From NCBI GenBank assembly GCA_009914755.4, contig CP068257.2:1152001-1216000 (forward strand): a stretch of DNA of 64,000 bases, written 5' to 3'. Below the pieces are notes generated by a model. It saw nothing but the letters and a program-made list of their open reading frames with translations, ran no database searches and was not told the origin of the DNA. A program made the position numbers and the translations under genes. This document shows positions 10,001 through 47,150 of the stretch, in pieces (positions within the stretch are counted from its first letter, which is position 1; each line of letters begins with the position of its first letter). Source of the stretch: the human T2T-CHM13v2.0 reference genome, Homo sapiens.

Positions 10001-10100
10001 AATGGAATCAACTGGAATGGAATGGAATGGAATGGAATAAATCCGGGTGGAGTGGAATGGAATGTAATGGAGTGGAATGGAATGGATTTTACTGGAATGG
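7011..10100 (+). repeat. Block B, collinear with A at about 93-98% identity with 10-80 bp indels; beyond about 10.1 kb the order of A-like segments is permuted
   Basis: Evidence as for block A. After 9947..10120 (matching A near 2772) the sequence jumps to match A near 4120, an apparent deletion of about 1 kb. Then 11.7-13.1 kb matches A 2.8-4.25 kb at an offset of about 8.9 kb. Confidence 0.7.
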
Positions 10101-18148: not shown

Positions 18149-18188
18149 GTAATGTAATGTAATGTAATGTAATGTAATGTAATGTAAT
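18149..18188 (+). repeat. (GTAAT)8 nested microsatellite, a single-base variant of the GGAAT pentamer expanded by slippage
   Basis: gtgtaatgtaatgtaatgtaatgtaatgtaatgtaatgg read directly. Shorter tracts sit at 226-250 (5 copies), 19274-19303 (6 copies) and 9497-9520 (4 copies), with many 2-3-copy tracts elsewhere. Confidence 0.85.
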
Positions 18189-23530: not shown

Positions 23531-26500
23531 GGATCGGAATATAATCCAATGGAATAAACTGGAATGGAATGGAATGGAATGGAATGGAATGAAATGCAGT
23601 GGATTGGAATGGAATCAAATGGAATCAACTGGAATGGAATGGAATGGAATGGAATGGAATAAATCCGGGTGGAGTGGAATGGAATGTAATGCAGTGGAAT
23701 GTAACGGAATTTAGTGGAATGGAATGGAAAGGAATGGAATGGAATGGAATGGAATGGAATGGAATGAAATGGATTCGATCGGAATGGAATCCAATGGAAT
23801 CAACTGGAATGGAATGGAATGCAATGGAATGGAATGGAATAAATCCGGGTGGAGTGGAATGGAATGTAACGGAGTGGAATGGAATGGAATTTAGTGGAAT
23901 GGAATGGAATGGAATGGATTGGAATGGAATTAACCCGAGTGGAATGGAACGGAATGGAATGGAAAGGAATGGAATGGAATGGAATGGAATGGAATGGAAT
24001 GGAATGGAATCAACCTGAATGGGATGGCATGGAATGGTATTGAATGCAATGGAATGGAATGGAATGGAATGGAATGGAATCAAACCAATTGCAATGGAAT
24101 GGAATGGAATGCAATGGAATCCACTCGATTGGAATGGAATGGAATGGAATGGAATGGAATGGAATGGAATGGAATGGAGTGGAATGGAATAAACACCAGA
24201 GGAATGAAATGGATTGGAATGAAATGGAATGGAATGGAATGGAATGAAATCAACCCGAGTGGAATGGAACGGAATGGAATGGAATGGAAAGGAATGAATG
24301 GAATGGAATTGTGGGGAATCAACACGAGAGTAATGGAATGGAATGGAACAGAATGGAAAGAATGGAATGGAATGAACCCGAATGGAATGGAATGGATTGG
24401 AATGGAATGGAATGGAATCAACCTGAGAGGAAAGGAATGGAATGGAATGGAGAGGAATGGAATGTAATGGAATGAAATGGAAAGGAATGGAATCAACACG
24501 AATGGAATGGAACGGAATGGAATGGGATGGGATGGAATGGAATGGAATGGAAGTTAATCAACACGAATGGAATGGAATGGAATGGAATGGAATGGAATGG
24601 AATGAAATGGAAAGGAACAGAATGGAATCAACACGAGTGGAATGGAATGGAACGGAATGGAATCAACCCGAGTGGAATGAAATGGAATGTAATGCAATGG
24701 GATGGAGTGGAATCAACCCGAGTGGAATGGAATCGAATGGAATGGAATGGAACGGAATGGAAAGAAATGGAATGTATCGGAATGGAATCCAATGGAATCA
24801 ACTGGAATGGAATGGAATGGAATGGAATGGAATGGAATGGAATGGAATAAATCCGGGTGGAGTGGAATGGAATGTAATGGAGTGCAATATTACGGAATTT
24901 AGTGGAATGGAATGGAATGGAATGGAATGGAATGGAATCGAATGGAATGAAATGGAATGGATCGGAATGGAATCCAAAGGAAACAACTGGAGTGGAATGG
25001 AATGGAATGGAATGGAATGGAATGGAATAAAACCGGGTGGAGTGGAATGGAATGTAATGGAGTGGAATGGAATGGAATTTAGTTTAATGGAATGGAATGG
25101 AATGGAATGGAATGGAATGGAATGGAATGAAATGGAATGGAATCAACCCGAATGGAATGGAACGGAATGGAATGGAAAGGAATGGAATGGAATGGAATGG
25201 AATGGAATAGAATGGAATGGAATGGAATTGAATGGAATGGAATGGAATCAACCAAATTGCAATGGAATGCAATGGAATGCAACGGAATCCACCCGAGTTG
25301 AATGGAATGGAATGGAATGGAATATAATGGAATGGAATGGAAAGGAATGGAATGGAACGGAATGGAATGGAATGGAGTGGAATGGAACTGAATGGAGTGG
25401 AATGGAATAAACACCAAGAGAATGAAATGGATTGGAATGAAATGGAATGGAATGGAATGGAATGGAATGAATTCAACCCGAGTGGAATGGAACGGAATGG
25501 AATGGAATGGAAACGAATGAATGGAAGGGAATGGTGTGGAATCAACACGAGAGGAATGGAATGGAATGGAATGGAAAGGAACGGAATGGAAAGGAATGGA
25601 ATGGAATGAACCCGAATGGAATGGAATGGATTGGAATGGAATGGAATGGAATCAACCCGAGCATAAAGGAATGGAACGGAAAGGAGTGGAATGGAATGGA
25701 TTGGAATGGAATGGAATCAACACGAATGGAATGGAGCGGAATGGACTGGGATGGGATGGAATCGAATGGAAAGGAATGGAATCAACACGAATGGAATGGA
25801 GCGGAATGGAATGGGATGGGATGGAATCGAATGGAATGGAATGGAATGGAATGGAATGGAATCAACATGAATGGAATGGAACGTAATGGAATGGAATGGA
25901 ATGGAAAGGAATGGAATGGAATGAACCCGAAGAGAATGGAATGGATTGGAATGGAATGGAATGGAATCAACCCGAGCGGAAAGGAATAGAATGGAATGGA
26001 GTGGAATGTAATGTAATGTAATGGAATGGAATGGAATGGAATGGAATCAACACGAATGGAATGGAACGGCATGGAATGGGATGGGATAGAATGGAATGGA
26101 ATGGAAGTTAATCAACACGAATGGAATGCAACAGAATGGAATGGAATGGAATGGAATGGAATGAACACGAATGGAATGGAATGGATTGGAATGGAATGGA
26201 ATGGAATCAACCCTAGTGGAAAGGAATGGAATGGAATGGAGTGGAATGTAATGTAATGTAATGGAATGGAATGGAATGGAATCAACACGAATGGAATGGA
26301 GCGGAATGGAATGGGATGGGATGGAATGGAATGGAATGGAATGGAATGGAATGGAATGGAATGGAATGGAATCAACATGAACGGAATGGAACGTAATGGA
26401 TTGGAACGGAACGGAATGGAATGGAATGGAATGGAATGGAATGGAATGAAATGGAAAGGAACGGAATGGAATCAACACGAGTGGAAAGGAATGGATAGGA

Positions 26501-28200
26501 ATGGAATCAACCCGAGTGGAATGAAATGGAATGTAATGCAATGGGATGGAGTGGAATCAACCCGAGTGGAATGTAATGGAATGGAATGGAATGGAACGAA
26601 ATGGAATGGATCGGAATGTAATCCAATGGAATCAACTGGAATGGAATGGAATGGAATGGAATGGAATGGAATGGAATAAATCCCGGTGGAGTGGAATGGG
26701 ATGTAAAGGAGTGGAATGTAATGGAATTTAGTGGAATGGAATGGAATGGAATGGAATGGAATGAAATGGATTGGATCGGATTGGAATCCAATGGAATCAA
26801 CTAGAATGGAATGGAATGGAATGGAATAAATCCGGGTGGAGTGGAATGGAATGGATTTTACTGGAATGGAATGGAATGGAATGGAATGGAATGGAATCAA
26901 CCCGAAAGGAATGGAACGGAAAGGAATGGAAAGGAATGGAATGGAATGGAATGGAATGGAAAGGAATGGAATGGAATGGAATGGAATCAACCCGAATGGG
27001 ATGGCATGGAATGGAACTGAATGGAATAGAATGGAATGGAATGGAATGGAATGGAATCAACCCAAGTGCAATGGAATGGAATGGAATGCAATGGAATCCA
27101 CCCGAGTGGAATGGAATGGAATGGAATGGAATGGAATGGAGTGGAATGGAACGGAATAGAATGGAATGCAAGAAACACCAGGGGAATAAAATGGATTGGA
27201 ATGAAATGGAATGGAATGGAATGGAATAGAATGAAATCCACCCAAGTGGAATGGAACGGAATGGAATGGAATTGAAAGGAATGAATGGTATGGAATGGTG
27301 TGGAATCAACACGAGAGGAATGGAATGGAATGGAATGCAACGGAACGGAATGGAAAGGAATGGAATGGAATGAACCCGAATGGAATGGAATGGATTGGAA
27401 TGGAATGGAATGGAATCAACCCGAGCGGAAAGGAATGGAATGGAATGGAGTGGAATGTAATGTAATTGAATGGAATGGAATGGAATGGAATGGAATCAAC
27501 ACAAATGGAATGGAACGGGATGGAATGGGATGGGATGGAATGATATGGAATGGAAGTTAATCAACACGAATGGAATGGAACGGAATGGAATGGAATGGAA
27601 AGGAATGGAATGGAATGGAATGGAATGGAACGGAATGGAATGGAATGAAATGGAATGGATCGGAATGGAATCCAATGGAATCAACTGGAATGGAATGGAA
27701 TGGAATGGAATGCAATTGAATGGAATAAATCTGGGTGCAGTGGAATGGAATGGAACGGAGTGGAATGTAATGGAATTTAGTGGAATGGAATGGAATGGAA
27801 TGGAATGGAATGGAATGGAATGAAATGGATTGGATCGGAAAGGAATCCAATGGAATCAACTGGAATGGAATGGCATGGAATGGAATGGAATGGAATGGAA
27901 TGGAATAAATCCGGGTGGAGTGGAATGGAATGTAATGGAGTGGAATGGAATGGAATTTAGTGGAATGGAATGGAATGGAAAGGAATGGAATGGAATGGAA
28001 TGGAATGGAATGGAATCAACCCGAATGGGATGGCATGGAATGGAATTGAATGGAATGGAATGGAATGGAATGGAATGGAATGGACTCAACCCAAGTGCAA
28101 TGGAATGGAATGGAATGCAATGGAATCCACCCGAGTGGAATGGAATGGAATGGAATGGAATGGAATGGAATGGAATGGAATGGAATCGAATGGAATAGAA
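23531..28200 (+). repeat. Block C, a third collinear copy of the A block (offset about 23.5-24.0 kb from A)
   Basis: ggaatataatccaatgg marks the block heads at 33, 7043 and 23545. The NKQQRNEMDWNEMEW-type segment lies at about 410, 7440 and 24190. The long ORF 24442..25410 parallels 668..1006 and 7683..8066. ORFs 26771..27229, 27285..27560 and 27470..27823 parallel 2772..3299, 3405..3590 and 3595..3783. Confidence 0.7.
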
Positions 28201-30099
28201 TGGAGTGGAATGGAACGGAATGGAGTGGAATGCAATAAACAACAGGGGAATGAAATGGATTGGAATGAAATGGAATGGAATGGAATGGAATGGAATGGAA
28301 TGGAATGGAATGAAATCAACTCGAGTTGAATGGAACGGAATGGAAGGGAATGGAAAGGAATGAATGGAATGGAATGGTGTGGCATCAACACGAGAGGCAT
28401 GGAATGGAATGGAATGGAACAGAACGGAATGGAAAGGAATGGAATGGAATGAACCCGAAGGGAATGCAATGGATTGGAATGGAATGGAATGCAATCAACC
28501 TGAGTGGAAAGGAATGGAATGGAATGGAGTGGAATGGAATGTAACGGAATGGAACGGAATGGAATGCAATGGAATCAACTGGAATGGAATGGAATGGAAT
28601 GGAATGGAATGGAATAAATCCGGGTGGAGTGGAATGGAATGTAATGGAGTGGAATGGAATGGAATTTAGTGGAGTGGAATGGAATGGAATGCAATCAACC
28701 CGAATGGAATGGAATGGAATGGAATGGAATGGAATGGAATGGAATCAACCCGAAAGGAATGGAATGGAATGGAATGGAATGGAATGGAATGGAATGGAAT
28801 CAACCCGAATTTGATGGCATGTAATGGAATTGAATGGAATGGAATGGAATGGAATGGAATGGAATGGAATGGAATGGAATCAACCCAAGTGCAATGGAAT
28901 GGAAGGGAATGCAATGGAATCCACACGAGTGGAATGGAATGGAATGGAATAGAATGGAATGGAATGGAATGGAATGGAATCGAATGGAATGGAATGGAGT
29001 GGAATGGAACGGAATGGAGTGGAATGCAATAAACGTCAGGAGAATGAAATGGATTGGAATGAAATGGAATGGAATGGAATGGAATGAAATCAACCCGAGT
29101 TGAATGGAACGGAATGGAATGGAATGAAAAGGAATGAATGGAATGGAATGGTGTGGAATCAACACGAGAGGAATTAAATGGAATGGAATGGAACGGAACG
29201 GAATTCAAACGAATGGAATGGAATGAACCCGAGTGGAATGGAATGGATTGGAATGGAATGGAATGGAATCAACACAAGCGGAAACTAATGGAATGGAATG
29301 GAGTGGAATGGAATGGAATGGAATTGAATGGAATCAACACGAATGGAATGGAACGGAATGGAATGGGTTGGGATGGAATGGAATGGAATGGAAGTTAATC
29401 AACACGAATGGAATGGAACGGAATGGAATGGAATGGAATGGAATGGAATGAAATGGAAAGGAACGGAATGGAATCAACACGAGTGGAATGGAGTGGAACG
29501 GAATGGAATCAACCCGAGTGGAATGAAATGAAATGTAATGTAATGGGATTGAGTGGAATCAACCCGAGTGGAACGGAATGGAACGGAATGGAATGGAATG
29601 GAATGAAATGGAACGGATCGGAATGGAATCCAATGGAATCAATTGGAATGGAATGGAATGGAATGGAAAGGAATGGAATAAATCCGGGTGGAGTGGAATG
29701 GAATGCAATGGAGTGGAACGTAATGGAATTTAGTGGAATGGAATGGAATGGAATGGAATGGAATGGAATGGAATAAGTCCGGGTAGAGAGGAATGGAATG
29801 TAACGGAGTGGAATGGAATGGAATTTAGGGGAATGGAATGGAATGGAATATAATGGAATGGAATGGAATGGAATGGAATGAAATCAAACCGAATGGAATG
29901 GAATGGAATGGAATGGAATGGAATGGAATCAACCTGAATGGGATGGCATGGAATGGAATTGAATGGAATGGAATTAACCCAAGTGCAATGGAATGGAATG
30001 AAATGCAATGGAATCCACCCGAGTGGAATGCAATGGAATGGAATGGAATGGAATGGAATGGAATGGAATGGAATGGAATGGAGTGGAATGGAACGGAAT

Positions 30100-33000
30100 G
30101 GAGTGGAATGGAATAAACACCAGGGGAATGAAATGGATTGGAATGAAATGTAATGGAATTTAATGGAATGCAATGAAATCAACCCGAGTGGAATGGAACG
30201 GAATGGTATGGAATGGAAAGGATTGAATGGAATGGAAGGGTGTGGAATCAACACGAGAGGAATGGAATGGAATGGAACGGAACGGAATGGAAAGGAATGG
30301 AATGGAATGAACCCGAATGGAATGGAATGGATTGGAATGGAATGGAATGGAAATAACCCGATCGGAAAGGAATGGAATGCAATGGAGTGGAATGGAATGT
30401 AGTGGAATGGAATGGAATGGAATGGAATCAACACGAATGGAATGGAACGGAATGGAATGGGATGGGATGGAATGGAATGGAATGAAATGGATTGGATGGG
30501 AATGGAATCCAATGGAATCAACTGGAATGGAATGGAATGGAATGGAATGGAATGGAATGCAATAATTCCGGGTGGAGTGGAATGGAATGTAATGGAGTGG
30601 AATGGAATGGAATTTAGTGGAATGGAATGGAATGGAATGGAATGGAATGGAATGGAATGGAATCAACCCGAATGGAATGGAACGGAATGGAATGGAATGG
30701 AATGGAATGGAATGGAATGGAATCAACACGAATGACATGGCATAGAATGCAATGGAACGGAATGGAATGGAATCAACCCGAATGGAATGGAAGGAAAGGG
30801 AATGGAAATGAATGGAATGGAATGGAATGGAATGGAATGGAATGGAATGGAATGGAATGGAATCAACCCAAATGGGATGGCATGGAATGGAATTGAATGG
30901 AATGGAATGGAATGGAATGGAATGGAATCAACCCAGTGCAATGGAATGGAATGGAATGCAATGGAATCCACCCGAGTGGAATGGAATGGAATGGAATGGA
31001 ATAGAATGGAATGGAATGGAATGGAATGGAATGGAATGGAATGGAATGGAGTGGAATGGAACGGAATGGAGTGGAATGGAATAAACACCAGGGGAATGAA
31101 ATGGATTGGAATGAAATGGAATGGAATGGAGTGGAATGGAATGAAATAAACCCGAGTGGAATGGAACGGAATGGAATGGAATGGAAAGGAATGAATGGAA
31201 TGGAATGGTGTGGAATCAACACGAGAGGAATGGAATGCAATGGAATGGAACGGAACGGAATGGAAAGGAATGGAATGGAATGAACCCGAAAGGAGTGAAA
31301 CGGATTGTAATGGAATGGAATAGAATCAACCCGAGCGGAAAGGAATGGAATGGAATGTAGTGGAATGTAATGTAATGTAATGGAATGGAATGGAATGGAA
31401 TCAACACGAATGGAATGGAACGGAATGGAATGGGATGGGATGGAATGGAATGGAATGCAAGTTAATCAACACGAATGGAATGGAACGGAATGGAATGGAA
31501 TGAAAAAGAAAGGAACAGAATGGAATCAATAAGAGTGGAATGGAATGGATCGGAGTGGAATAAACTCGATTGGAATGAAATGGAATGTAATGCAATGGGA
31601 TGGAGCAGAATCAACCCGAGTGAAATGGAATGGAATGGAATGGAAGGAATTGAATGGAATGGAATGGAATGAAATGGAATGGAATGGATCGGAGTGGAAT
31701 CTAATGGAATCAACCGGAATGGAATGGAATGCAATGGAATGAAATGGAATGGAATGCAATGGAATGGAATGGAAAGGAATAAATCCGGGTGGAGTGGAAT
31801 GGAAAGTAATGGAGTGGAATGTAATGGAATTTAGTGGAATGGAATGGAATGGAATGGAATGGAATGAAATCTATTGGATCGGAATGGAATCCAATGGAAT
31901 AAACTGGAATGGAATGGAATGGCATGGAATGGAATGGAATGGAATGGAATGGAATAAATCCGGGTGGAGTGGAATGGAATGTAATAGAGTGGAATGGAAT
32001 GGAATTTAGTGCAATGGAATGGAATGCAATGGAATGGAATGGAATGGAATGGAATCAACCCGAATGGAATGGAACGGAATGGAATGGAATGGAATGGAAT
32101 GGAATGGAATCAACACGAATGGCATGGCATAGAATGGAATGGAATGGAATGGAATGGACCCGAATGGAATGGAATGGATTGGAATGGAATGGAATGGAAT
32201 CAACCCGAGCGGAAAGGAATTGAATGGAATGGAGTGGAATGGAATATAATGGAATGGAATGGAAAGGAATGGAATCAACACGAATGGAATGGAACGGAAT
32301 GGAATGAGATGGGATGGAATGGAATGGAATGGAAGTTAATCAACAGGAATGGAATGCAACGGAATGGAATGGAATGGAATGGAATGAACCCGAATGGAAT
32401 TGAATGGATTGGAATGCAATGGAATGGAATCAACCAGAGCGGAAAGGATTCGAATGGAATGGAGTGGAATGTAATGTAATGTAATGGAATGGAATGGAAT
32501 GGAATCAACACGAATGGAATGGAACGGAATGGAATGGTATGGGATGGAATGGAATGGAATGGAAGTTAATCAACACGAATGGAGTGGAATGGAATGGAAT
32601 GGAATGGAATGGAATGGAATGGAATGGAATTAAATTGTAAAGGAACGGAATGGAATCAACACGACTGGAATGGAATGGAACGGAATGGAATCAACCCGAG
32701 TGGAATGAAATGGAATGTAGTGCAATGGGATGGAGTGGAATCAACCCGAGTGGAATGGAATGGAATGGAATGGAATGGAATGGAAAGGAATGGAATGAAA
32801 TGGATTGGATCGGAATGGAATCCAATCGAATTAACTGGAATGGAATGGAATGGAATGGAATGGAATAAATCCGGGTGGAGTGGAATGGAATGTAATGGAG
32901 TGGAATGGAATGGAATTTTGTGGGATGGAATGGAATGGAATGGAATCAACCGGAATGGGATGGCATGGAATGGAAGTGAGTGGAATGGAATGGAATGGAA

Positions 33001-36000
33001 TGGAATGGAATGGAATCAAACCAAGTGCAATGGAATGGAATGGAATGCAGTGGAATCCACCTGAGTGGAATGGAATGGAATGGAATGGAATGGAATGGAA
33101 TAGAATGGAGTGGAATGGAACGGAATGGAATGGAATGGAACGGAATAGAATGGAACGAACCCGAATGGAATGGAATGGAATTAACCCGAATGGAATGGAA
33201 TGGATTGGAATGGAATGCAATGGAATCAACCTGAGCGGAAAGGAATGGAATGGAATGGAGTGGAATGTAATGTAATGGAATGGAATGGAATGGAATCAAC
33301 CCGAATGGAATGGAACGGAATGGAATGGAAAGGAATGGAATGGAATGGAATGAAATGGAATGGAATGGAGTGGAATCTAACGGAATGGAGTGGAATGCAA
33401 TAAACACCAGGGGAATGAAATGGATTGGAATGAAATGGAATGGAATGGAATGGAATGAAATCAACCCGAGTGGAATTGAACGGAATGGAATGGAATGGAA
33501 AGAAATGAATGGAATGGAATGGGGTGGAATCAACATGAGAGGAATGGAATGCAGTGGAATGGAATGTGATGTAATGGAAAGGAATGGAATGGAATCAACA
33601 CGAATGGAATGGAACGGAATGGAATGGGATGGGATGGAATTTAATAGAATGGAAGTTAATCAACACGAATGGAATGGAACGGAATGGAATGGAATGGAAT
33701 GGAATGGAATGGAATGGAATGGAAAGGAATGAATGGAAAGGAACGGAATGGAATCAACACGAGTGGAATGTAATGGAACGGAATGGAATCAACCCGAGTG
33801 GGATGAAATGGAATGTAATGCAATGAGATGGAGGGGAATCAACCCGAGTGGAATGGAATGGAATGGAATGGAATGGAATGGAATGGAATGGAATGAAATA
33901 GAATGGATCCGAAAGGAATCCATTGGAATCAACTGGAATGGAATGGAATGGAATGGAATGGAATGGAATAAATCCGGGTGGAGTGGATTGGAATGTAATG
34001 GAGAGCAATGTAATCGAATTTTTTGGAATGGAATGGAATGGAATGGAATGGAATGGAATGAAATGGATTGGATCGGGATGGAATCCAATGGAATCAACTG
34101 GAATGGAATGGAATGGAAGGGAATGGAATGGAATAAATCCGGGTGGAGTGGAATGGAAAGTAATGGAGTGGAATGTAATGGAATTTAGTGGAATGGAATG
34201 GAATGGAATGGAATGGAATGAAATGGATTGGATCGGAATGGAATCCAATGGAATCAACTGGAATGGAATGGAATGGAATGGAATGGAATAAATACGGGTG
34301 GAGTGGAATGGAATGGAATGGAGTGGAATGGAATGGAATTTAGTGGGATGGAATGGAATGGAATGGAATGGAATGGAATGGAATGGAATCAACCGGAATG
34401 GGATGGCATGGAATGGAATTGAGTGGAATGGAATGGAATGGAATGGAAAGGAATCAAACCAAGTGCAATGAAATGGAATGGAATGCAATGGAATCCACCC
34501 GAGTGGAATGGAATGGAATGGAATGGAATGGAATGGAATGGAATGGAATGGAATAGAAAGGAATGGAGTGGAATGGAATAAACACCAGGGGAATGAAATG
34601 GATTGGAATGAAATGGAATGGAATGGAATGGAATGGAATGAAATCAACCCGAGTGGAATGGAACGGAATGGAATGGAAAGGAATGGAATAGAATGAAATG
34701 GCAAGGAATGGAATGGAATGGAATGGAATCAACCCAAATGGGATGGCATGGAATGGAATTGAATGGAATGGAATGGAATGGAATGGAATCAACCCAAGTG
34801 CAATGGAATGGAATGGAATGCAATGGAATCTACCCGAGTGGAATGGAATGGAATGGAATGGAATGGAATGGAATGGAATGGACTGGAATGGAATGGAATG
34901 GAGTCGAATGGAACGGAACGGAGTGGAATGGAATAAACACCAGGGGAATGAAATGGATTGGAATGAAATGGAATGGAATGGAATGGAATGGAATGGAATG
35001 AAATCAACCCGAGTGGAATGGAACGGAATGGAATGGAATGGATAGGAATTAATGGAATGGAATGGTGTGGAATCAACACGAGAGGAATGGAATGGAATGG
35101 AATGGAACGGAATGGAATGGAAAGGAATGGAATGGAATGAACCCGAATGGAATGGAATGGATTGGAATGGAATGGAATGGAATCAACCCGAGCAGAAAGG
35201 AATGGAATGTAATGGAGTGGAATGGAATGGAATGGAATGGAATGGAATGGAATGGAATCAACACGAATGGAATGGAACGGAATGGAATGGGATGGGTTGG
35301 AATGGAATGGAATGGAACTTAATCAAGACGAATGGAAAGGAATGAAATGGAATGAACCCGAATGGAATGGAATGAACCCGAATGGAATGGAATGGATTGG
35401 AATGCAATGGAATGGAATCAACCTGAGAAGAAAGGAATGGAATGGAATGGAGTGGAATGGAATGTAATGGAATGGAATGGAATGGAATGGAATCAACACG
35501 AATGGAATGGAATGGAATGGAATGGGATGGGATGGAATGGAATGGAATGGATGTTAATCAACACGAATGGAATGGAACGGAATGGAATGGAATGGAATGG
35601 AATGGAATGAACCCGAATGGAATGGAATGGATTGGAATGGAATGGAATGGAATCAACACGAGCGGAAAGGAATGGAATGGAATGGAGTGGAATGGAAAGT
35701 AATGGAATGGAATGGAATGGAATGGAATCAACACGAATGGAATGGAACGGAATGGAATGGGATGGGATGGAATGGAATGGAATGGAAGTTAATCAACACG
35801 AATGGAATGGAACGGAATGGAAAGGAATGGTATGGAATGAAACCCAATGGAATGGAATGGATTGGAATGGAATGGAATGGAATCAACCCGAGCGGAAAGG
35901 AATGGAATCAAATGGAGTGGAATGGAAAGTAATGTAACGGAATGAAATGGAATGGAATCAACATGAATGGAATGGAACGGAATGGAATTTGATGGGATGG

Positions 36001-36753
36001 AATGGAATGGAATGAACCCGAATGGAATGGAATGGATTGGAATGGAATGGAATGGAATCAACCCGAGCGGAAAGGAATTGAATGGAACGGAGTGGAATGG
36101 AATATAATGGAATGGAATGGAAAGGAATGGAATCAACAAGAATGGAATGGAACGTAATGGAATGGGATGGGATGGAATGGAATGGAATGGAAGTTAATCA
36201 ACACGAATGGAATGGAACGGAATGGAATGGAATGGAATGGAATGAACCCGAATGGGATGGAATGGATTGGAATGGAATGGAATGGAATCAACCCGAGAGG
36301 AAAGGATTGGAATGGAATGGAGTGGAATGGAATGTAATGGAATGGAATGGAATAGAATGGTATCAAAACGAATGGAATGGAACAGAATGGAATGGTATGG
36401 GATGGAATGGAATGGAATGGAAGTTAATCAACACGAATGGAATGGAACAGAATGGAATGGAATGGAATGGAATGGAATGGAATGAAATGGAAAGGAACGG
36501 AATGGAATCAACACGAGTGGAATGGAGTGGAATGGAATGGAATCAACCCGAGTGGAATGAAATGGAATGTAGTGCAATGGGATGGAGTGGAATCAACCCG
36601 AGTGGAATGGAATGTAATGGAAGTTAATCAACACGAATTGAATGGAACGGAATAGAATGGAATGGAATGGAATGGAAGGGAATGGAATGGAATGGAATGG
36701 AATGGAATGGAATGGAGTGGAATGGAACGGAATGGAGTGGAATGGAACGGAAT
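30100..36753 (+). repeat. Copy 1 of a 6,654-bp near-identical tandem duplication within the satellite array
   Basis: Dozens of ORF translations recur with an exact +6654 coordinate shift: 30160..30738 = 36814..37392, 31216..31407 = 37870..38061, 32579..33064 = 39233..39718, 33754..34704 = 40408..41358 and 36082..36627 = 42736..43281. Direct alignment of 30131.. against 36785.. shows only two single-base differences. Confidence 0.9.
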
Positions 36754-39700
36754 GGAGTGGAATGGAATAAACACCAGGGAAATGAAATGGATTGGAATGA
36801 AATGTAATGGAATTTAATGGAATGCAATGAAATCAACCCGAGTGGAATGGAACGGAATGGTATGGAATGGAAAGGATTGAATGGAATGGAAGGGTGTGGA
36901 ATCAACACGAGAGGAATGGAATGGAATGGAACGGAACGGAATGGAAAGGAATGGAATGGAATGAACCCGAATGGAATGGAATGGATTGGAATGGAATGGA
37001 ATGGAAATAACCCGATCGGAAAGGAATGGAATGCAATGGAGTGGAATGGAATGTAGTGGAATGGAATGGAATGGAATGGAATCAACACGAATGGAATGGA
37101 ACGGAATGGAATGGGATGGGATGGAATGGAATGGAATGAAATGGATTGGATGGGAATGGAATCCAATGGAATCAACTGGAATGGAATGGAATGGAATGGA
37201 ATGGAATGGAATGCAATAATTCCGGGTGGAGTGGAATGGAATGTAATGGAGTGGAATGGAATGGAATTTAGTGGAATGGAATGGAATGGAATGGAATGGA
37301 ATGGAATGGAATGGAATCAACCCGAATGGAATGGAACGGAATGGAATGGAATGGAATGGAATGGAATGGAATGGAATCAACACGAATGACATGGCATAGA
37401 ATGCAATGGAACGGAATGGAATGGAATCAACCCGAATGGAATGGAAGGAAAGGGAATGGAAATGAATGGAATGGAATGGAATGGAATGGAATGGAATGGA
37501 ATGGAATGGAATGGAATCAACCCAAATGGGATGGCATGGAATGGAATTGAATGGAATGGAATGGAATGGAATGGAATGGAATCAACCCAGTGCAATGGAA
37601 TGGAATGGAATGCAATGGAATCCACCCGAGTGGAATGGAATGGAATGGAATGGAATAGAATGGAATGGAATGGAATGGAATGGAATGGAATGGAATGGAA
37701 TGGAGTGGAATGGAACGGAATGGAGTGGAATGGAATAAACACCAGGGGAATGAAATGGATTGGAATGAAATGGAATGGAATGGAGTGGAATGGAATGAAA
37801 TAAACCCGAGTGGAATGGAACGGAATGGAATGGAATGGAAAGGAATGAATGGAATGGAATGGTGTGGAATCAACACGAGAGGAATGGAATGCAATGGAAT
37901 GGAACGGAACGGAATGGAAAGGAATGGAATGGAATGAACCCGAAAGGAGTGAAACGGATTGTAATGGAATGGAATAGAATCAACCCGAGCGGAAAGGAAT
38001 GGAATGGAATGTAGTGGAATGTAATGTAATGTAATGGAATGGAATGGAATGGAATCAACACGAATGGAATGGAACGGAATGGAATGGGATGGGATGGAAT
38101 GGAATGGAATGCAAGTTAATCAACACGAATGGAATGGAACGGAATGGAATGGAATGAAAAAGAAAGGAACAGAATGGAATCAATAAGAGTGGAATGGAAT
38201 GGATCGGAGTGGAATAAACTCGATTGGAATGAAATGGAATGTAATGCAATGGGATGGAGCAGAATCAACCCGAGTGAAATGGAATGGAATGGAATGGAAG
38301 GAATTGAATGGAATGGAATGGAATGAAATGGAATGGAATGGATCGGAGTGGAATCTAATGGAATCAACCGGAATGGAATGGAATGCAATGGAATGAAATG
38401 GAATGGAATGCAATGGAATGGAATGGAAAGGAATAAATCCGGGTGGAGTGGAATGGAAAGTAATGGAGTGGAATGTAATGGAATTTAGTGGAATGGAATG
38501 GAATGGAATGGAATGGAATGAAATCTATTGGATCGGAATGGAATCCAATGGAATAAACTGGAATGGAATGGAATGGCATGGAATGGAATGGAATGGAATG
38601 GAATGGAATAAATCCGGGTGGAGTGGAATGGAATGTAATAGAGTGGAATGGAATGGAATTTAGTGCAATGGAATGGAATGCAATGGAATGGAATGGAATG
38701 GAATGGAATCAACCCGAATGGAATGGAACGGAATGGAATGGAATGGAATGGAATGGAATGGAATCAACACGAATGGCATGGCATAGAATGGAATGGAATG
38801 GAATGGAATGGACCCGAATGGAATGGAATGGATTGGAATGGAATGGAATGGAATCAACCCGAGCGGAAAGGAATTGAATGGAATGGAGTGGAATGGAATA
38901 TAATGGAATGGAATGGAAAGGAATGGAATCAACACGAATGGAATGGAACGGAATGGAATGAGATGGGATGGAATGGAATGGAATGGAAGTTAATCAACAG
39001 GAATGGAATGCAACGGAATGGAATGGAATGGAATGGAATGAACCCGAATGGAATTGAATGGATTGGAATGCAATGGAATGGAATCAACCAGAGCGGAAAG
39101 GATTCGAATGGAATGGAGTGGAATGTAATGTAATGTAATGGAATGGAATGGAATGGAATCAACACGAATGGAATGGAACGGAATGGAATGGTATGGGATG
39201 GAATGGAATGGAATGGAAGTTAATCAACACGAATGGAGTGGAATGGAATGGAATGGAATGGAATGGAATGGAATGGAATGGAATTAAATTGTAAAGGAAC
39301 GGAATGGAATCAACACGACTGGAATGGAATGGAACGGAATGGAATCAACCCGAGTGGAATGAAATGGAATGTAGTGCAATGGGATGGAGTGGAATCAACC
39401 CGAGTGGAATGGAATGGAATGGAATGGAATGGAATGGAAAGGAATGGAATGAAATGGATTGGATCGGAATGGAATCCAATCGAATTAACTGGAATGGAAT
39501 GGAATGGAATGGAATGGAATAAATCCGGGTGGAGTGGAATGGAATGTAATGGAGTGGAATGGAATGGAATTTTGTGGGATGGAATGGAATGGAATGGAAT
39601 CAACCGGAATGGGATGGCATGGAATGGAAGTGAGTGGAATGGAATGGAATGGAATGGAATGGAATGGAATCAAACCAAGTGCAATGGAATGGAATGGAAT

Positions 39701-42700
39701 GCAGTGGAATCCACCTGAGTGGAATGGAATGGAATGGAATGGAATGGAATGGAATAGAATGGAGTGGAATGGAACGGAATGGAATGGAATGGAACGGAAT
39801 AGAATGGAACGAACCCGAATGGAATGGAATGGAATTAACCCGAATGGAATGGAATGGATTGGAATGGAATGCAATGGAATCAACCTGAGCGGAAAGGAAT
39901 GGAATGGAATGGAGTGGAATGTAATGTAATGGAATGGAATGGAATGGAATCAACCCGAATGGAATGGAACGGAATGGAATGGAAAGGAATGGAATGGAAT
40001 GGAATGAAATGGAATGGAATGGAGTGGAATCTAACGGAATGGAGTGGAATGCAATAAACACCAGGGGAATGAAATGGATTGGAATGAAATGGAATGGAAT
40101 GGAATGGAATGAAATCAACCCGAGTGGAATTGAACGGAATGGAATGGAATGGAAAGAAATGAATGGAATGGAATGGGGTGGAATCAACATGAGAGGAATG
40201 GAATGCAGTGGAATGGAATGTGATGTAATGGAAAGGAATGGAATGGAATCAACACGAATGGAATGGAACGGAATGGAATGGGATGGGATGGAATTTAATA
40301 GAATGGAAGTTAATCAACACGAATGGAATGGAACGGAATGGAATGGAATGGAATGGAATGGAATGGAATGGAATGGAAAGGAATGAATGGAAAGGAACGG
40401 AATGGAATCAACACGAGTGGAATGTAATGGAACGGAATGGAATCAACCCGAGTGGGATGAAATGGAATGTAATGCAATGAGATGGAGGGGAATCAACCCG
40501 AGTGGAATGGAATGGAATGGAATGGAATGGAATGGAATGGAATGGAATGAAATAGAATGGATCCGAAAGGAATCCATTGGAATCAACTGGAATGGAATGG
40601 AATGGAATGGAATGGAATGGAATAAATCCGGGTGGAGTGGATTGGAATGTAATGGAGAGCAATGTAATCGAATTTTTTGGAATGGAATGGAATGGAATGG
40701 AATGGAATGGAATGAAATGGATTGGATCGGGATGGAATCCAATGGAATCAACTGGAATGGAATGGAATGGAAGGGAATGGAATGGAATAAATCCGGGTGG
40801 AGTGGAATGGAAAGTAATGGAGTGGAATGTAATGGAATTTAGTGGAATGGAATGGAATGGAATGGAATGGAATGAAATGGATTGGATCGGAATGGAATCC
40901 AATGGAATCAACTGGAATGGAATGGAATGGAATGGAATGGAATAAATACGGGTGGAGTGGAATGGAATGGAATGGAGTGGAATGGAATGGAATTTAGTGG
41001 GATGGAATGGAATGGAATGGAATGGAATGGAATGGAATGGAATCAACCGGAATGGGATGGCATGGAATGGAATTGAGTGGAATGGAATGGAATGGAATGG
41101 AAAGGAATCAAACCAAGTGCAATGAAATGGAATGGAATGCAATGGAATCCACCCGAGTGGAATGGAATGGAATGGAATGGAATGGAATGGAATGGAATGG
41201 AATGGAATAGAAAGGAATGGAGTGGAATGGAATAAACACCAGGGGAATGAAATGGATTGGAATGAAATGGAATGGAATGGAATGGAATGGAATGAAATCA
41301 ACCCGAGTGGAATGGAACGGAATGGAATGGAAAGGAATGGAATAGAATGAAATGGCAAGGAATGGAATGGAATGGAATGGAATCAACCCAAATGGGATGG
41401 CATGGAATGGAATTGAATGGAATGGAATGGAATGAAATGGAATCAACCCAAGTGCAATGGAATGGAATGGAATGCAATGGAATCTACCCGAGTGGAATGG
41501 AATGGAATGGAATGGAATGGAATGGAATGGAATGGACTGGAATGGAATGGAATGGAGTCGAATGGAACGGAACGGAGTGGAATGGAATAAACACCAGGGG
41601 AATGAAATGGATTGGAATGAAATGGAATGGAATGGAATGGAATGGAATGGAATGAAATCAACCCGAGTGGAATGGAACGGAATGGAATGGAATGGATAGG
41701 AATTAATGGAATGGAATGGTGTGGAATCAACACGAGAGGAATGGAATGGAATGGAATGGAACGGAATGGAATGGAAAGGAATGGAATGGAATGAACCCGA
41801 ATGGAATGGAATGGATTGGAATGGAATGGAATGGAATCAACCCGAGCAGAAAGGAATGGAATGTAATGGAGTGGAATGGAATGGAATGGAATGGAATGGA
41901 ATGGAATGGAATCAACACGAATGGAATGGAACGGAATGGAATGGGATGGGTTGGAATGGAATGGAATGGAACTTAATCAAGACGAATGGAAAGGAATGAA
42001 ATGGAATGAACCCGAATGGAATGGAATGAACCCGAATGGAATGGAATGGATTGGAATGCAATGGAATGGAATCAACCTGAGAAGAAAGGAATGGAATGGA
42101 ATGGAGTGGAATGGAATGTAATGGAATGGAATGGAATGGAATGGAATCAACACGAATGGAATGGAATGGAATGGAATGGGATGGGATGGAATGGAATGGA
42201 ATGGATGTTAATCAACACGAATGGAATGGAACGGAATGGAATGGAATGGAATGGAATGGAATGAACCCGAATGGAATGGAATGGATTGGAATGGAATGGA
42301 ATGGAATCAACACGAGCGGAAAGGAATGGAATGGAATGGAGTGGAATGGAAAGTAATGGAATGGAATGGAATGGAATGGAATCAACACGAATGGAATGGA
42401 ACGGAATGGAATGGGATGGGATGGAATGGAATGGAATGGAAGTTAATCAACACGAATGGAATGGAACGGAATGGAAAGGAATGGTATGGAATGAAACCCA
42501 ATGGAATGGAATGGATTGGAATGGAATGGAATGGAATCAACCCGAGCGGAAAGGAATGGAATCAAATGGAGTGGAATGGAAAGTAATGTAACGGAATGAA
42601 ATGGAATGGAATCAACATGAATGGAATGGAACGGAATGGAATTTGATGGGATGGAATGGAATGGAATGAACCCGAATGGAATGGAATGGATTGGAATGGA

Positions 42701-43407
42701 ATGGAATGGAATCAACCCGAGCGGAAAGGAATTGAATGGAACGGAGTGGAATGGAATATAATGGAATGGAATGGAAAGGAATGGAATCAACAAGAATGGA
42801 ATGGAACGTAATGGAATGGGATGGGATGGAATGGAATGGAATGGAAGTTAATCAACACGAATGGAATGGAACGGAATGGAATGGAATGGAATGGAATGAA
42901 CCCGAATGGGATGGAATGGATTGGAATGGAATGGAATGGAATCAACCCGAGAGGAAAGGATTGGAATGGAATGGAGTGGAATGGAATGTAATGGAATGGA
43001 ATGGAATAGAATGGTATCAAAACGAATGGAATGGAACAGAATGGAATGGTATGGGATGGAATGGAATGGAATGGAAGTTAATCAACACGAATGGAATGGA
43101 ACAGAATGGAATGGAATGGAATGGAATGGAATGGAATGAAATGGAAAGGAACGGAATGGAATCAACACGAGTGGAATGGAGTGGAATGGAATGGAATCAA
43201 CCCGAGTGGAATGAAATGGAATGTAGTGCAATGGGATGGAGTGGAATCAACCCGAGTGGAATGGAATGTAATGGAAGTTAATCAACACGAATTGAATGGA
43301 ACGGAATAGAATGGAATGGAATGGAATGGAAGGGAATGGAATGGAATGGAATGGAATGGAATGGAATGGAGTGGAATGGAACGGAATGGAGTGGAATGGA
43401 ACGGAAT
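36754..43407 (+). repeat. Copy 2 of the 6,654-bp tandem duplication
   Basis: Same evidence as copy 1. Differences seen: G at 30125 versus A at 36779, and G at 34781 versus A at 41435. Both are GGAATG to GAAATG transitions. Everything else compared through the ORF track is identical. Confidence 0.9.
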
Positions 43408-43455
43408 GGAGTGGAATGGAATAAACACCAGGGAAATGAAATGGATTGGAATGAA
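43408..43455 (+). repeat. Start of a truncated third copy of the 6.65-kb unit (about 50-100 bp) before the sequence diverges
   Basis: 43351-43455 (..ggagtggaatggaataaacaccagggaaatgaaatggattggaatgaaatg) matches 36697-36804. From 43456 the sequences diverge: gaatggaatggaataaatccgg here versus taatggaatttaatgg at the start of copy 2. Confidence 0.7.
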
Positions 43456-45092
43456 ATGGAATGGAATGGAATAAATCCGGGTGGAGTGGAATGGAATGAA
43501 ATGAAGTGGAATGCAATGGAATTTATTGGAATGGAATGGAACGGAACGGAATGGGATGGGATGGAAAGGAATGGAATGGAACTTAATCAACACGAATGGA
43601 AAGTAATGAAATGGACTGAACCCGAATGGAATGGAATGGATTGGAATGCAATGGAATGGAATCAACCGGAATGGGATGGCATGGAATGGAATTGAGTGGA
43701 ATGGAATGGAATGGAATGGAATGGAATCAAACCAAGTGCAAAGGAATGGAATGGAATGCAATGGAATCCACCCGAGTGGAATGGAATGGAATGGAATAAA
43801 ATGGAATGGAATGGAATGGAATGGAATGGAATGGAATGGAATGGAGTGTAATGGAACGGAATGGAATGGAATGGAACGGAAAGGAATGGAATGAACCCAA
43901 ATGGAATGGAATGGAATTAACCCGAATGGAATGGAATGGATTGGAATGGAATGGAATGGAATCAACCTGAGCGGAAAGGAATGGAATGGAATGGAGTGGA
44001 ATGTAATGTAATGGAATGGAATGGAAGGAATGGAATCAACACGAATGGAATGGAACGGAATGGAATGGGATGAGATGGAATGGAATGGAATGGAAGTTAA
44101 TCAACACGAATGGAATGGAACGGAATGGGATGGAATGGAATGGAATGGAATGGAATGGAAAGGAATGGAATGGAATGGAATGAAATGGAAAGGAACGGAA
44201 TGGAATCAACACGAGTGGAATGGAATGGAACGGAATGGAATCAACCCGAGTGGAATTAAATGGAATGTAATGCAATGGGATGGAGGGGAATCAACCCGAG
44301 TGGAATGGAATGGAATGGAATGGAATGGAATGGAATGGAATGGAATGGAATGAAATGAAATGGAATGGATCAGAATGGAATCCAAGGGAATCAACTGGAA
44401 TGGAATGGAATGGAATGGAATGGAATAAATCCGGTGGGAGTGGAATGGAATGTAATGAAGTGGAATGTAATGGAATTTTGTGGAATGGAATGGAATGGAA
44501 TGCAATGGAATGGAATGAAATGGATTGGATCGGAATGGAATCCATTGGAATCAATTGGAATGGAATGGAAAGGAATGGAATGGAATGGAGTGGAATGGAA
44601 TGGAACGGAATGGAATGGAATGGAATGGAATGGAATGGAATAAATCCGGGTGGAGTGGAATGGAATGAAATGGAGTGGAATGGAATGGAATTTGGTGGAA
44701 TGGAATGGAATGGAATAGAATGGAATGGAATGGAATTGAATCAACCCGAATGGAATGGAACGGAATGGAATGGAAAGGAATGTTATGGAATGGAATGGAA
44801 TCAACACGAATAGGATGGCATTGAATTGAATGGAAAGGAATTTAATCGAATGGAATGGAATGGAATGGAATGGAATGGAATGGAATCAACCCAAGTGCAA
44901 TGGAATGGAATGGAATGCAATGGAATCCAACCGAGTGGAAATGAATGGAATGGAATGGAATGGAATGGAATGGAATAGAGTGGAATCGAACGGAATGGAG
45001 TGGAATGCAATAAACACCAGGGGAATGAAATGGATTGGAATGAAATGTAATGTAATGTAATGGAATGGAATGGAATGGAATGGAATTGAATG

Positions 45093-47150
45093 GAATGAAA
45101 TCAACCCGAGTGGAATGGAACGGAATGGAATGGAATGGAAAGGAATGAATGGAATGGAATGGGGTGGAAACAACACGAGAGGAATGGAATGTAATGGAAT
45201 GGAAAGGAACGGAATGGAAAGGAATGGAATGGAATGAACCCGAATGGAATGGAATGGATTGGAATGGAATGGAATGGAATCAACCCTAGCGGAAAGGAAT
45301 GGAATGGAATGGAGTGGAATGGAATGTAATGGAATGGAATGGAATGGAATGGAGTGGAATGTAATGTAACGGAATGCAATGGAATGGAATGGAATCAACA
45401 CGAATGGAATGGAACGGCATGGAATGGGATGGGATGGAATGGAATGGAATGGAATTTAATCAACACGAATGGAATGGAAAGGAATGGAATGGAATGGCAT
45501 GGAATGGAATGGAATGGAATGGAATGGAGTAGAATGAAATAGAAAGGAAAGGAATGGAATCAACACGAGTGGAATGGAATGGAACGGAATGGAATCAACC
45601 CGAGTGGAATGAAATGGAATGTAATGCAATGGGATGGAGTGGAATCAACCCGAGTGGAATGGAATGGAATGGAATGGAATGGAATGGAATGGAATAAATC
45701 TGGGTGGAGTGGAATGGAATGTAATGGAGTGGAACGTAATGGAATTTAGTGGAATGGGATGGAATGGAATCAACACGAATGGAATGGAACGGAATGGAAT
45801 GAGATGGGATGGAGTGGAATGGAATGGAATTTAATCAACACGAATTGAATGGAACGGAATGTAATGTAATGGAATGGAATGGAATGGAATGAAATGGAAT
45901 GGAATGGAATGGAATGGAATGGAATGAAATCAACCCGAGTGGAATGGAACGGAATGGAATGGAATGGAAAGGAATGAATGGAATGGAATGGTGTGGAATC
46001 AACATGAGAGGAATGGAATGGAATGGAATGGAACGGAACGGAATGGAAAGGAATGGAATGGAATGAACCCGAATGGAATGGAATGGATTGGAATGGAATG
46101 GAATGGAATCAACCCTAGCGGAAAGGAATGGAATGGAATGGAGTGGAATGGAATGTAATGGAATGGAATGGAATGGAATGGAGTGGAATGGAATGTAACG
46201 GAATGCAATGGAATGGAATGGAATCAACACGAATGGAATGAAACGGCATGGAATGGGATGGGATGGAATGGAATGGAATGGAATTTAATCAACACGAATG
46301 GAATGGAAAGGAATGGAATGGAATGGCATGGAATGGAATGGAATGGAATGGAATGGAGTAGAATGAAATAGAAAGGAAAGGAATGGAATCAACACGAGTG
46401 GAATGGAATGGAACGGAATGGAATCAACCCGAGTGGAATGAAATGGAATGTAATGCAATGGGATGGAGTGGAATCAACCCGAGTGGAATGGAATGGAATG
46501 GAATGGAATGGAATGGAATGAAATGGAATAAATCTGGGTGGAGTGGAATGGAATGTAATGGAGTGGAACGTAATGGAATTTAGTGGAATGGGATGGAATG
46601 GAATCAACACGAATGGAATGGAACGGAATGGAATGAGATGGGATGGAGTGGAATGGAATGGAATTTAATCAACACGAATTGAATGGAACGGAATGTAATG
46701 GAATGGAATGGAATGGAATGGAATGAAATGGAATGGAATGGAATGGAATGGAATGGAATGAAATCAACCCGAGTGGAATGGAACGGAATGGAATGGAATG
46801 GAAAGGAATGAATGGAATGGAATGGTGTGGAATCAACATGAGAGGAATGGAATGGAATGGAATGGAACGGAACGGAATGGAAAGGAATGGAATGGAATGA
46901 ACGTGAATGGAATGGAATGGATTGGAATGGAATGGAATGGAATCAACCCGAGCGGAAAGGAATGGAATGGAATGGAGTGGAATGGAATGGAATGGAATGG
47001 AATGGAGTGGAATGGAATGGAATGGAATGGAATGGAATGGAATGCAATGGAATCAACACGAATGGAATGGAACGGAACGGAATGGGATGGGATGGAATGG
47101 AATGGAATGGAACTTAATCAACACGAATGGAAAGTAATGGAATGGAATGC
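45093..47150 (+). repeat. About 830-bp unit in tandem, roughly 2.5 copies (45093-45922, 45923-46755, 46756-about 47150); copies 2 and 3 are nearly identical and copy 1 is more diverged
   Basis: gaatgaaatcaacccgagtggaatggaacgg recurs at 45093, 45923 and 46756. ORF 45339..45542 matches 46168..46371 with 2 aa differences at a shift of 829. The 45421.. and 46250.. stretches read identically over several hundred bp. Confidence 0.7.

What the first reader, a model, noticed from the sequence alone, without database searches (positions are those of the whole stretch)
30050..43460. Near-perfect 6,654-bp tandem duplication (2 copies plus a truncated third) inside the array
The two copies differ at only two positions that I could find. 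The flanking block families elsewhere in the window differ from each other by 2-7%. Either this is a very recent unequal-crossover or replication-slippage expansion of a 6.65-kb unit, or it is an assembly artefact (over-expansion of a collapsed repeat). Both are worth knowing about. Both differences are G/A transitions that convert GGAATG to GAAATG.
Basis: seen in the sequence. Interest (0 to 1): 0.6.

Follow-up and report, generated by a model that had tools for sequence, protein, structure and literature searches.

The report
Young 6.65-kb duplication in HSat3
A 6,654-base stretch of human-type satellite 3 DNA (the GGAAT repeat near centromeres) sits twice in a row and almost letter-perfect; this is the ordinary way such repeat arrays grow, and only the original sequencing reads can rule out an assembly error.

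Summary
At a lag of 6,654 nt the window is identical from 30127 to 36804 except at one site (34781 G / 41435 A). No other lag gives more than about 1.1 kb of ungapped sequence at 97% identity or better. The whole 64-kb window is uninterrupted, single-orientation (GGAAT)n satellite. It carries the diagnostic HSat3B4 24-mer 51 times and none of the 13 other subfamilies' top markers.

The junction patch (36686-36804) equals the downstream patch h2 (43340-43458) on its left and the upstream patch h1 (30032-30150) on its right. There is a single switch inside 24 identical nt (30127-30150). So the "truncated third copy" is the pre-existing h2 patch. The difference at 30126 is an older h1/h2 paralog variant. 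Only 41435 A (derived; 96 of 100 paralogs have G) separates the copies.

Outside the 119-nt patch the flanks are about 75% identical, which is the satellite baseline. That argues for duplication, not conversion.

The best reading is a recent head-to-tail duplication by misaligned short-homology exchange or template switch. An assembly artefact cannot be excluded without reads. This is an ordinary, known kind of event, of low interest.

The parts
1..64000 (+). Host array. Uninterrupted (GGAAT)n-derived satellite of HSat3 type, subfamily HSat3B4 by its marker 24-mer. GGAAT-rich strand is + throughout. No regular higher-order period.
   Evidence: TRF reports one period-5 array over 1-63981. Base composition is A 39%, G 35%, T 19%, C 6.5% with constant skew. 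Exact GGAAT covers 56% of the window and there are 303 CAAC[AC]CGA[AG]T decamers. The HSat3B4 24-mer occurs 51 times and the top 24-mers of the 13 other subfamilies 0 times (24-mers from PMC4022460). No low-satellite stretch and no strand switch was found.
30032..30150 (+). h1: the upstream homology patch (119 nt). It is 116/119 identical to h2.
   Evidence: Three-way comparison at lag 6654 and position checks.
30127..30150 (+). Exchange interval: 24 nt (AATGAAATGGATTGGAATGAAATG) identical in h1, hybrid and h2. The switch from h2-type to h1-type sequence lies here.
   Evidence: The last h1-versus-hybrid mismatch is at 30126. The first hybrid-versus-h2 mismatch is at 36805, equivalent to 30151.
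30127..36780 (+). Copy 1 of the 6,654-nt unit, phased at the exchange interval. It carries the ancestral G at 34781.
36686..36804 (+). Hybrid junction patch. It is identical to h2 on its left (G36717, C36728, A36780) and to h1 on its right (T36805 onward).
   Evidence: In this window the combination CACCAGGGAAATG...GAAATGTAATGGAATTTAAT occurs only here.
36781..43434 (+). Copy 2 of the unit. It carries the derived A at 41435, the only difference between the copies.
   Evidence: At the aligned column 96 of 100 paralogous alignments have G, 3 have C, and only this copy has A.
Sequence to its right is unrelated to the start of the unit beyond the satellite baseline.

Best explanation
This is a real, evolutionarily very young head-to-tail duplication of a 6,654-nt segment inside an HSat3B4-type satellite array, of the kind found on human acrocentric short arms. 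Two short, similar patches lay 6,654 nt apart in the ancestral array: h1 and h2, each 119 nt and 97.5% identical, both copies of a motif that recurs through the array. A broken or nascent DNA end from h2 paired out of register with h1 on the sister chromatid or the same template. This could have been an unequal sister-chromatid or other homology-directed exchange, or a replication or break-induced template switch. Resolution fell inside 24 identical nucleotides. The product is h1 - X - hybrid(h2 left / h1 right) - X - h2. One G-to-A substitution has since arisen in copy 2. What is shown: the anatomy, the single switch point, the pre-existing homology, and which allele is derived. What is inferred: the type of DNA transaction, the sister chromatid as partner, and the age. 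One difference in 6,678 nt gives about 150,000 years at 0.5e-9 per bp per year, with a Poisson 95% range of about 4,000-830,000 years. By my own arithmetic, not a tool run, the elevated satellite rates reported in pedigrees would give about 5,000-45,000 years. The segment has no function of its own. It is a growth step of the array.
For: Identity is 99.985% over 6,678 compared positions at lag 6654, and this lag is unique among all lags. The hybrid junction has one switch and no inserted or deleted bases. The A at 36780 and 43434 is private to the hybrid and h2, whereas 19 other motif copies have G, so h2 carried it before the event. Flanks outside the patch are 74-78% identical over 200-1000 nt, close to the background medians of 75.5% (left) and 81% (right) for motif-anchored pairs. 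So these are not older paralogous blocks that were later homogenised. The derived state of 41435 A is supported by 96 of 100 paralogs with G. The array shows a graded series of older local duplications at 98% down to about 85%, so the same process has acted repeatedly. The literature reports that HSat2,3 repeat units evolve and expand hyper-locally (10.1101/2021.07.12.452052). De novo satellite insertions and deletions of 0.68-12.2 kb have been seen in a human pedigree, and none of the 27 euchromatic de novo tandem-repeat structural variants in that study coincided with a meiotic crossover (PMC12240836).
Against: No reads were available, so the two-copy state is not independently verified. Public contig scans did not recover the h1, hybrid or h2 forms, and an exact-protein look-up of a junction-spanning ORF found nothing. 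The homology at the exchange point is short: perfect runs of 24 and 51 nt in a 119-nt patch. From my own knowledge, this is below the roughly 200 nt usually considered efficient for mammalian homologous recombination. It weakens classical crossover and favours a template-switch or short-homology variant. Sequence alone cannot tell these apart. The species is inferred from human-defined markers, not proven.
Confidence: 0.78

Rival explanations
1. Assembly artefact. The genome has only one copy of the unit (or a different number), and the assembler traversed a repeat loop once too often or placed two haplotypes of one locus in tandem.
For: Near-perfect identity is what an artificial double traversal would give. 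Satellite arrays are the hardest regions to assemble, and polishing and validation pipelines treat some HSat3 specially (10.1101/2021.07.02.450803). No independent public sequence with the junction was found.
Against: There are no Ns or contig-end signatures, and the composition is seamless. The junction lies exactly in a pre-existing homology patch with a clean single switch, which random concatenation of haplotigs would not produce. A graph loop needs reads containing the hybrid junction, and h1 and h2 share at most 51 nt of perfect match. By inference, long accurate reads would not create the join falsely, and a real junction implies at least two copies. The copies differ by one substitution, so the assembler saw two distinguishable versions. 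By inference, the whole structure (13.4 kb) is within the span of single HiFi or ONT reads.
Confidence: 0.14
2. Gene conversion. Two older, diverged tandem paralogous blocks were homogenised by a long conversion tract rather than newly duplicated.
For: Interlocus gene conversion is proposed to be frequent in HSat3-type arrays such as Yq12 (PMC12240836).
Against: The identical region is exactly one period long and abuts itself without a spacer. Beyond it the lag-6654 similarity falls at once to the ~75% baseline on both sides, not to an intermediate older-paralog level. From general knowledge, a 6.65-kb tract would be unusually long for mammalian conversion.
Confidence: 0.03
3. Circle-mediated duplication. 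Recombination between h1 and h2 excised a 6,654-nt extrachromosomal circle, which re-integrated by homology into an intact copy or was amplified by rolling-circle synthesis.
For: The excised circle's junction would be h2-left/h1-right, the same as the hybrid seen here (inference). From my own knowledge, satellite-derived extrachromosomal circles are known in human cells.
Against: It needs two events where one suffices. Rolling-circle copying would tend to give more than two copies, and only two are present.
Confidence: 0.05

Closest known systems
Human satellite 3, subfamily HSat3B4 (Altemose et al. 2014, PMC4022460), reported on acrocentric chromosomes 13, 14, 21 and 22
   Same: It is a (GGAAT)n-derived pentameric satellite with interspersed CAACCCGAGT-type decamers. 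The most common HSat3B4-specific 24-mer occurs 51 times in 64 kb, and the corresponding 24-mers of the other 13 HSat2/3 subfamilies are absent.
   Different: Nothing differs in kind. Only one marker 24-mer per subfamily was available rather than the full library, and the chromosome and species could not be checked.
Local ('hyper-local') expansion of nested tandem repeats in HSat2,3 arrays, and recent duplications in centromeric arrays (Altemose et al., 10.1101/2021.07.12.452052)
   Same: A kilobase-scale unit made of many diverged pentamers is duplicated in tandem within a small part of a large array. A series of older duplications of other sizes surrounds it.
   Different: There are only two copies and the 6,654-nt period occurs nowhere else in the window. 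So it is a single duplication event, not an established nested tandem repeat.
Unequal crossover model of satellite evolution (Smith 1976; Kurnit 1979, unequal mitotic crossing over; cited in PMC4022460)
   Same: Out-of-register pairing of similar repeats gives a duplication whose junction is a hybrid of the two paired repeats, as seen here.
   Different: The paired homology is short, 119 nt with perfect runs of 24 and 51 nt. A replication or repair template switch fits at least as well as a true crossover. Pedigree data also argue against meiotic inter-homolog crossover as the main source of tandem-repeat changes.
De novo structural changes in human centromeric and pericentromeric satellites seen in a four-generation pedigree (PMC12240836)
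   Same: The size class matches (0.68-12.2 kb gains and losses), and some events lie in pericentromeric flanking satellites.
   Different: Most of those events are integer changes of alpha-satellite higher-order repeat units. This event is in HSat3 with no regular unit, and it is fixed in this assembly rather than observed arising.

Membership tests
Human satellite 3 (HSat3) | Derived from a tandem pentamer (GGAAT)n / (ATTCC)n | tested here: met
   TRF reports a single period-5 array over 1-63981 with consensus GAATG. Exact GGAAT covers 56% of the bases.
Human satellite 3 (HSat3) | Pentamer runs interspersed with a CAACCCGA(A/G)T-type decamer (the classical satellite 3 description, from my own knowledge) | tested here: met
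   There are 303 matches to CAAC[AC]CGA[AG]T, with a median spacing of the CAAC[AC]CG core of 94 nt.
Human satellite 2 (HSat2), considered as an alternative | HSat2 subfamily-specific 24-mers | tested here: not met
   The top HSat2A1, A2 and B 24-mers occur 0 times on either strand.
HSat3B4 subfamily | Presence of HSat3B4-specific 24-mers and absence of those of other subfamilies (Altemose 2014) | tested here: met
   TTCCATTCCACTCCACCCGGATTT occurs 51 times as its reverse complement, and the top 24-mers of all 13 other subfamilies occur 0 times. Only the single most common 24-mer per subfamily was available, not the full library.
HSat3B4 subfamily | Location on the short arms or pericentromeres of chromosomes 13, 14, 21 and 22 | not testable with these tools
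   No human reference genome is searchable here. The 30 metagenome contigs with related sequence are short host-contamination fragments, 73-96% identical to the window.
Nested tandem repeat / higher-order repeat with a 6.65-kb period | Three or more tandem copies with a consistent period across a stretch of the array | tested here: not met
   There are two copies only. Lag-6654 identity is at background level everywhere else. The k-mer interval spectrum without copy 2 shows only loose periodicity of about 1.0-1.25 kb.
Homology-mediated tandem duplication (unequal exchange or template switch) | Head-to-tail copies without a spacer, a junction that is a hybrid of two pre-existing similar sequences at the ends of the unit, and no untemplated bases | tested here: met
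   The three-way comparison of h1, hybrid and h2 shows one switch inside 24 identical nt.
Assembly false duplication | Halved read depth, no reads spanning the junction, and junction k-mers absent from the reads | not testable with these tools
   No reads were available. The indirect arguments are given under the rival explanations.

The most novel reading that the evidence does not exclude
The duplication is the first step in the birth of a new 6.65-kb nested repeat unit in an acrocentric HSat3B4 array. On this reading it still varies in copy number (1, 2 or more) among people. It would then be a datable, locus-specific marker for following array growth and exchange between acrocentric short arms across pangenome assemblies.
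Probability: 0.25. Interest if true: 0.3.

Novelty: already known. Interest (0 to 1): 0.15.

Why it matters
It matters little on its own. It is a clean example of how HSat3 arrays grow by local duplication. The breakpoint is resolved to 24 nt, and there is one dated substitution. It gives a concrete checkpoint for assembly validation: three diagnostic 47-mers for h1, hybrid and h2, plus the 34781/41435 variant. If the copy number varies between people, it could serve as a marker in a region that has few.

Tried and rejected
A whole-window self-megablast returned almost nothing because of HSP handling. I replaced it with an all-lag identity scan and BLAST of 1-kb chunks.

Megablast of the unit against the window with the duplicated region masked printed nothing. 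Older paralogs were taken instead.

Public scans for independent copies of the junction did not help. Metagenome contigs gave 30 hits, all of the common motif form (G / G / GG) and at most 96% identical to the window over short stretches. Bacterial and archaeal genomes and viral contigs gave 0 hits for the h1 and hybrid forms. An exact-protein look-up of a 183-aa mechanical ORF spanning the junction found no record.

I tested whether the exchange patch is a special hotspot and rejected the idea. The reconstructed pre-duplication sequence has about 1,000 non-simple exact matches of 51 nt or more within 10 kb, many of them longer, up to 279 nt.

Rfam gave no match. No inverted repeats were found in 29.0-44.5 kb. 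No transposon-like or low-satellite interruption was found.

Gene conversion of older paralogs is rejected on flank identity. Prokaryotic gene-based readings are irrelevant because the window is a eukaryotic satellite.
Full report
**What the window is.** The 64-kb window is one uninterrupted simple-sequence satellite.
- Base composition is A 39%, G 35%, T 19%, C 6.5%, with constant GC and AT skew from end to end.
- Tandem Repeats Finder reports a single period-5 array over 1-63981 with consensus GAATG.
- Exact GGAAT pentamers cover 56% of the bases, and 303 CAAC[AC]CGA[AG]T decamers are interspersed.
- No 100-nt stretch has low satellite content, there is no strand switch (maximum pyrimidine fraction 0.335 in 200 nt), and there are no inverted repeats around the finding.
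- No Rfam family matches.

This is the classical description of human satellite 3. Table 1 of Altemose et al. [quoted passage not shown] The HSat3B4 marker occurs 51 times and the other 13 markers not at all. That paper places HSat3B4 on chromosomes 13, 14, 21 and 22. I could not verify the chromosome or species. Thirty public metagenome contigs, some from human gut samples, carry related but non-identical sequence (73-96% identity over the aligned parts). This is consistent with human host DNA in those assemblies. All prokaryote-oriented readings are irrelevant, and the long mechanical ORFs are by-products of the pentamer repeat.

**Checking the observation.**
- At lag 6654 the sequence is identical from 30127 to 36804 except at 34781.
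- A scan of every possible lag shows 6654 is the only one with kilobases of ungapped identity at 97% or better. The runner-up is about 1.1 kb at lag 3923.
- One-kb chunks outside the duplication have a best non-self identity of 81.4-98.4%, median 88.5%.

The duplication is therefore real in the sequence and far outside the background.

**Anatomy of the junction.** I compared three patches at lag 6654: h1 (30032-30150), the junction patch (36686-36804) and h2 (43340-43458).
- The junction patch is identical to h2 on its left. It shares G36717/G43371, C36728/C43382 and A36780/A43434, where h1 has A, T and G.
- It is identical to h1 on its right. T36805 equals T30151, where h2 has G, and h2 diverges completely from there.
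- There is one switch. It lies inside the 24 nt AATGAAATGGATTGGAATGAAATG (30127-30150), which are identical in all three patches.
- h1 and h2 are 116/119 identical.

- The 'truncated third copy' is simply h2. It is the pre-existing downstream partner of the exchange, and its presence is what a homology-mediated duplication predicts.
- The 30126 difference is not a mutation since the duplication. The A is shared by the hybrid and h2 and is private to them, while 19 other copies of the motif in the window have G. So it is an older difference between h1 and h2 that marks the left limit of the exchange interval.

The only true difference between the copies is 34781 G versus 41435 A. At the aligned column 96 of 100 paralogous alignments have G, 3 have C, and only copy 2 has A. 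So A is derived and arose in copy 2.

**Duplication rather than conversion.** Outside the 119-nt patch, the sequences flanking h1 and h2 are 74-78% identical over 200-1000 nt. The background medians for other motif-anchored pairs are 75.5% (left) and 81% (right). If two old paralogous blocks had been homogenised, the flanks should keep an intermediate identity. Instead the similarity collapses to baseline at both ends, and the identical region is exactly one period long. I therefore reject conversion of older paralogs.

**Is the exchange site special?** The patch belongs to a landmark motif (AATAAACACCAGGG...) that occurs 27 times at irregular spacing. I reconstructed the pre-duplication sequence and counted exact matches. 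It contains about 1,000 non-simple exact matches of 51 nt or more within 10 kb, many of them longer, up to 279 nt. Substrates for out-of-register pairing are abundant, and this one is unremarkable. I make no hotspot claim.

**Context in the array.** The window has no regular higher-order repeat. After removing copy 2, the k-mer interval spectrum shows only a loose periodicity of about 1.0-1.25 kb. What it does show is a graded series of older local duplications:
- about 2 kb at lag 3918-3933, about 97-98% identical;
- about 1.1 kb at lag 829/834, about 97% identical;
- 2-3 kb at lag 7010-7175, 91-97% identical, with a third relative at 86-91%;
- older paralogs of parts of the young unit, at 91-95%.

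The 6,654-nt event is the youngest member of this series by about two orders of magnitude in divergence. This matches published descriptions of HSat2,3 arrays, in which kilobase 'nested tandem repeats' evolve and expand hyper-locally (10.1101/2021.07.12.452052). It also fits the long-standing unequal-exchange model of satellite evolution (references cited in PMC4022460).

**Mechanism.** The sequence shows a single, clean, homology-guided switch between two patches 6,654 nt apart. I infer that a DNA end in h2 paired out of register with h1, most likely on the sister chromatid. Repair or replication then continued from there.
- The homology is short, with perfect runs of 24 and 51 nt. From my own knowledge, this is below the usual efficient length for mammalian homologous recombination.
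- In a pedigree study, none of the 27 euchromatic de novo tandem-repeat structural variants coincided with a meiotic crossover (PMC12240836).
- Both points favour mitotic or sister-chromatid repair, or a template switch, over a classical meiotic unequal crossover.
- Sequence alone cannot separate these, nor exclude excision and re-integration of a circle.
- De novo satellite gains and losses of 0.68-12.2 kb are directly observed in that pedigree, so the size is ordinary.

**Age.** One difference in 6,678 compared positions gives about 150,000 years at 0.5e-9 per bp per year, with a Poisson 95% range of about 4,000-830,000 years. The pedigree study reports elevated satellite rates of 4.9e-8 and 3.9e-7 per bp per generation. 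By my own arithmetic, those give roughly 1,500 or 200 generations. All of this assumes a human-like lineage and no later conversion between the copies.

**Assembly artefact.** I cannot test this directly, because no reads are available. The public scans and an exact-protein look-up of a junction-spanning ORF found no independent copy of the h1, hybrid or h2 forms. Four indirect points argue against an artefact.
- The join lies exactly in a pre-existing homology patch, which a random concatenation of haplotypes would not produce.
- The longest perfect match between h1 and h2 is 51 nt, too short to mislead an overlap of long accurate reads. So the hybrid junction probably exists in reads, and a real junction implies at least two copies.
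- The copies are distinguishable by one substitution.
- The whole structure is 13.4 kb, within the span of single long reads.

These are inferences. I leave about 14% for an artefact or a wrong copy number.

**Verdict.** The feature is an ordinary, known kind of event in a known satellite family, so its interest is low. Its practical value is as a precise assembly checkpoint and possibly as a copy-number marker.

Noticed in passing
window 46481-48521 vs 50404-52449: This is the second-youngest local duplication: about 2 kb at lags 3918-3933, about 97-98% identical with small 5-nt register shifts. It is roughly 100 times more diverged than the 6,654-nt duplication.
   Followed up: partly
window 45039-46300 vs 45868-47129: This is a short-period tandem duplication at lag 829/834, 97.2% identical over 1.27 kb. 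It lies directly upstream of, and overlaps, the lag-3923 duplication.
   Followed up: partly
window 1-3000 vs 7011-10176 vs 23752-26961: This is a three-member older block family. The first two members are 91-97% identical (lags 7010-7165) and the third is 86-91% identical to both. It shows layered duplications of different ages.
   Followed up: no
window 32010-36000 vs 47738-49758, 51661-52650, 56262-57275, 58056-59075: Parts of the young 6,654-nt unit have older paralogs downstream at 91-95% identity. So the unit itself descends from earlier duplications that were later split by other insertions or duplications.
   Followed up: no
window, 27 sites (e.g. 4604, 15087, 30112, 31080, 36766, 43420, 63550): The landmark motif AATAAACACCAGGG recurs at irregular spacing. 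It extends to CACCAGGGGAATGAAATGGATTGGAATGAAATG at 19 sites. The exchange patch of the duplication is one pair of these.
   Followed up: partly
whole window: CpG is not depleted relative to base composition: 1,292 CpGs, observed/expected 0.88. That may be unexpected for presumably methylated heterochromatin, and I did not pursue it.
   Followed up: no
L001-L030 (public metagenome contigs): Thirty contigs of 1-7 kb from public metagenome assemblies, at least one labelled human gut, consist of HSat3-like sequence sharing the 47-nt motif. This is most likely human host DNA in metagenome assemblies. None matches the window closely: identity is 73-89% over the aligned length of the contigs, and only two short partial alignments reach 93.5% and 96%.
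   Followed up: partly
window 36624-37175 (-) and 36814-37392 (-): Mechanical ORFs of 183 and 192 aa made of IPFHS-like repeats run through the satellite on the minus strand. They are by-products of the pentamer repeat and could be mis-annotated as proteins. An exact look-up of the 183-aa one found no record.
   Followed up: yes
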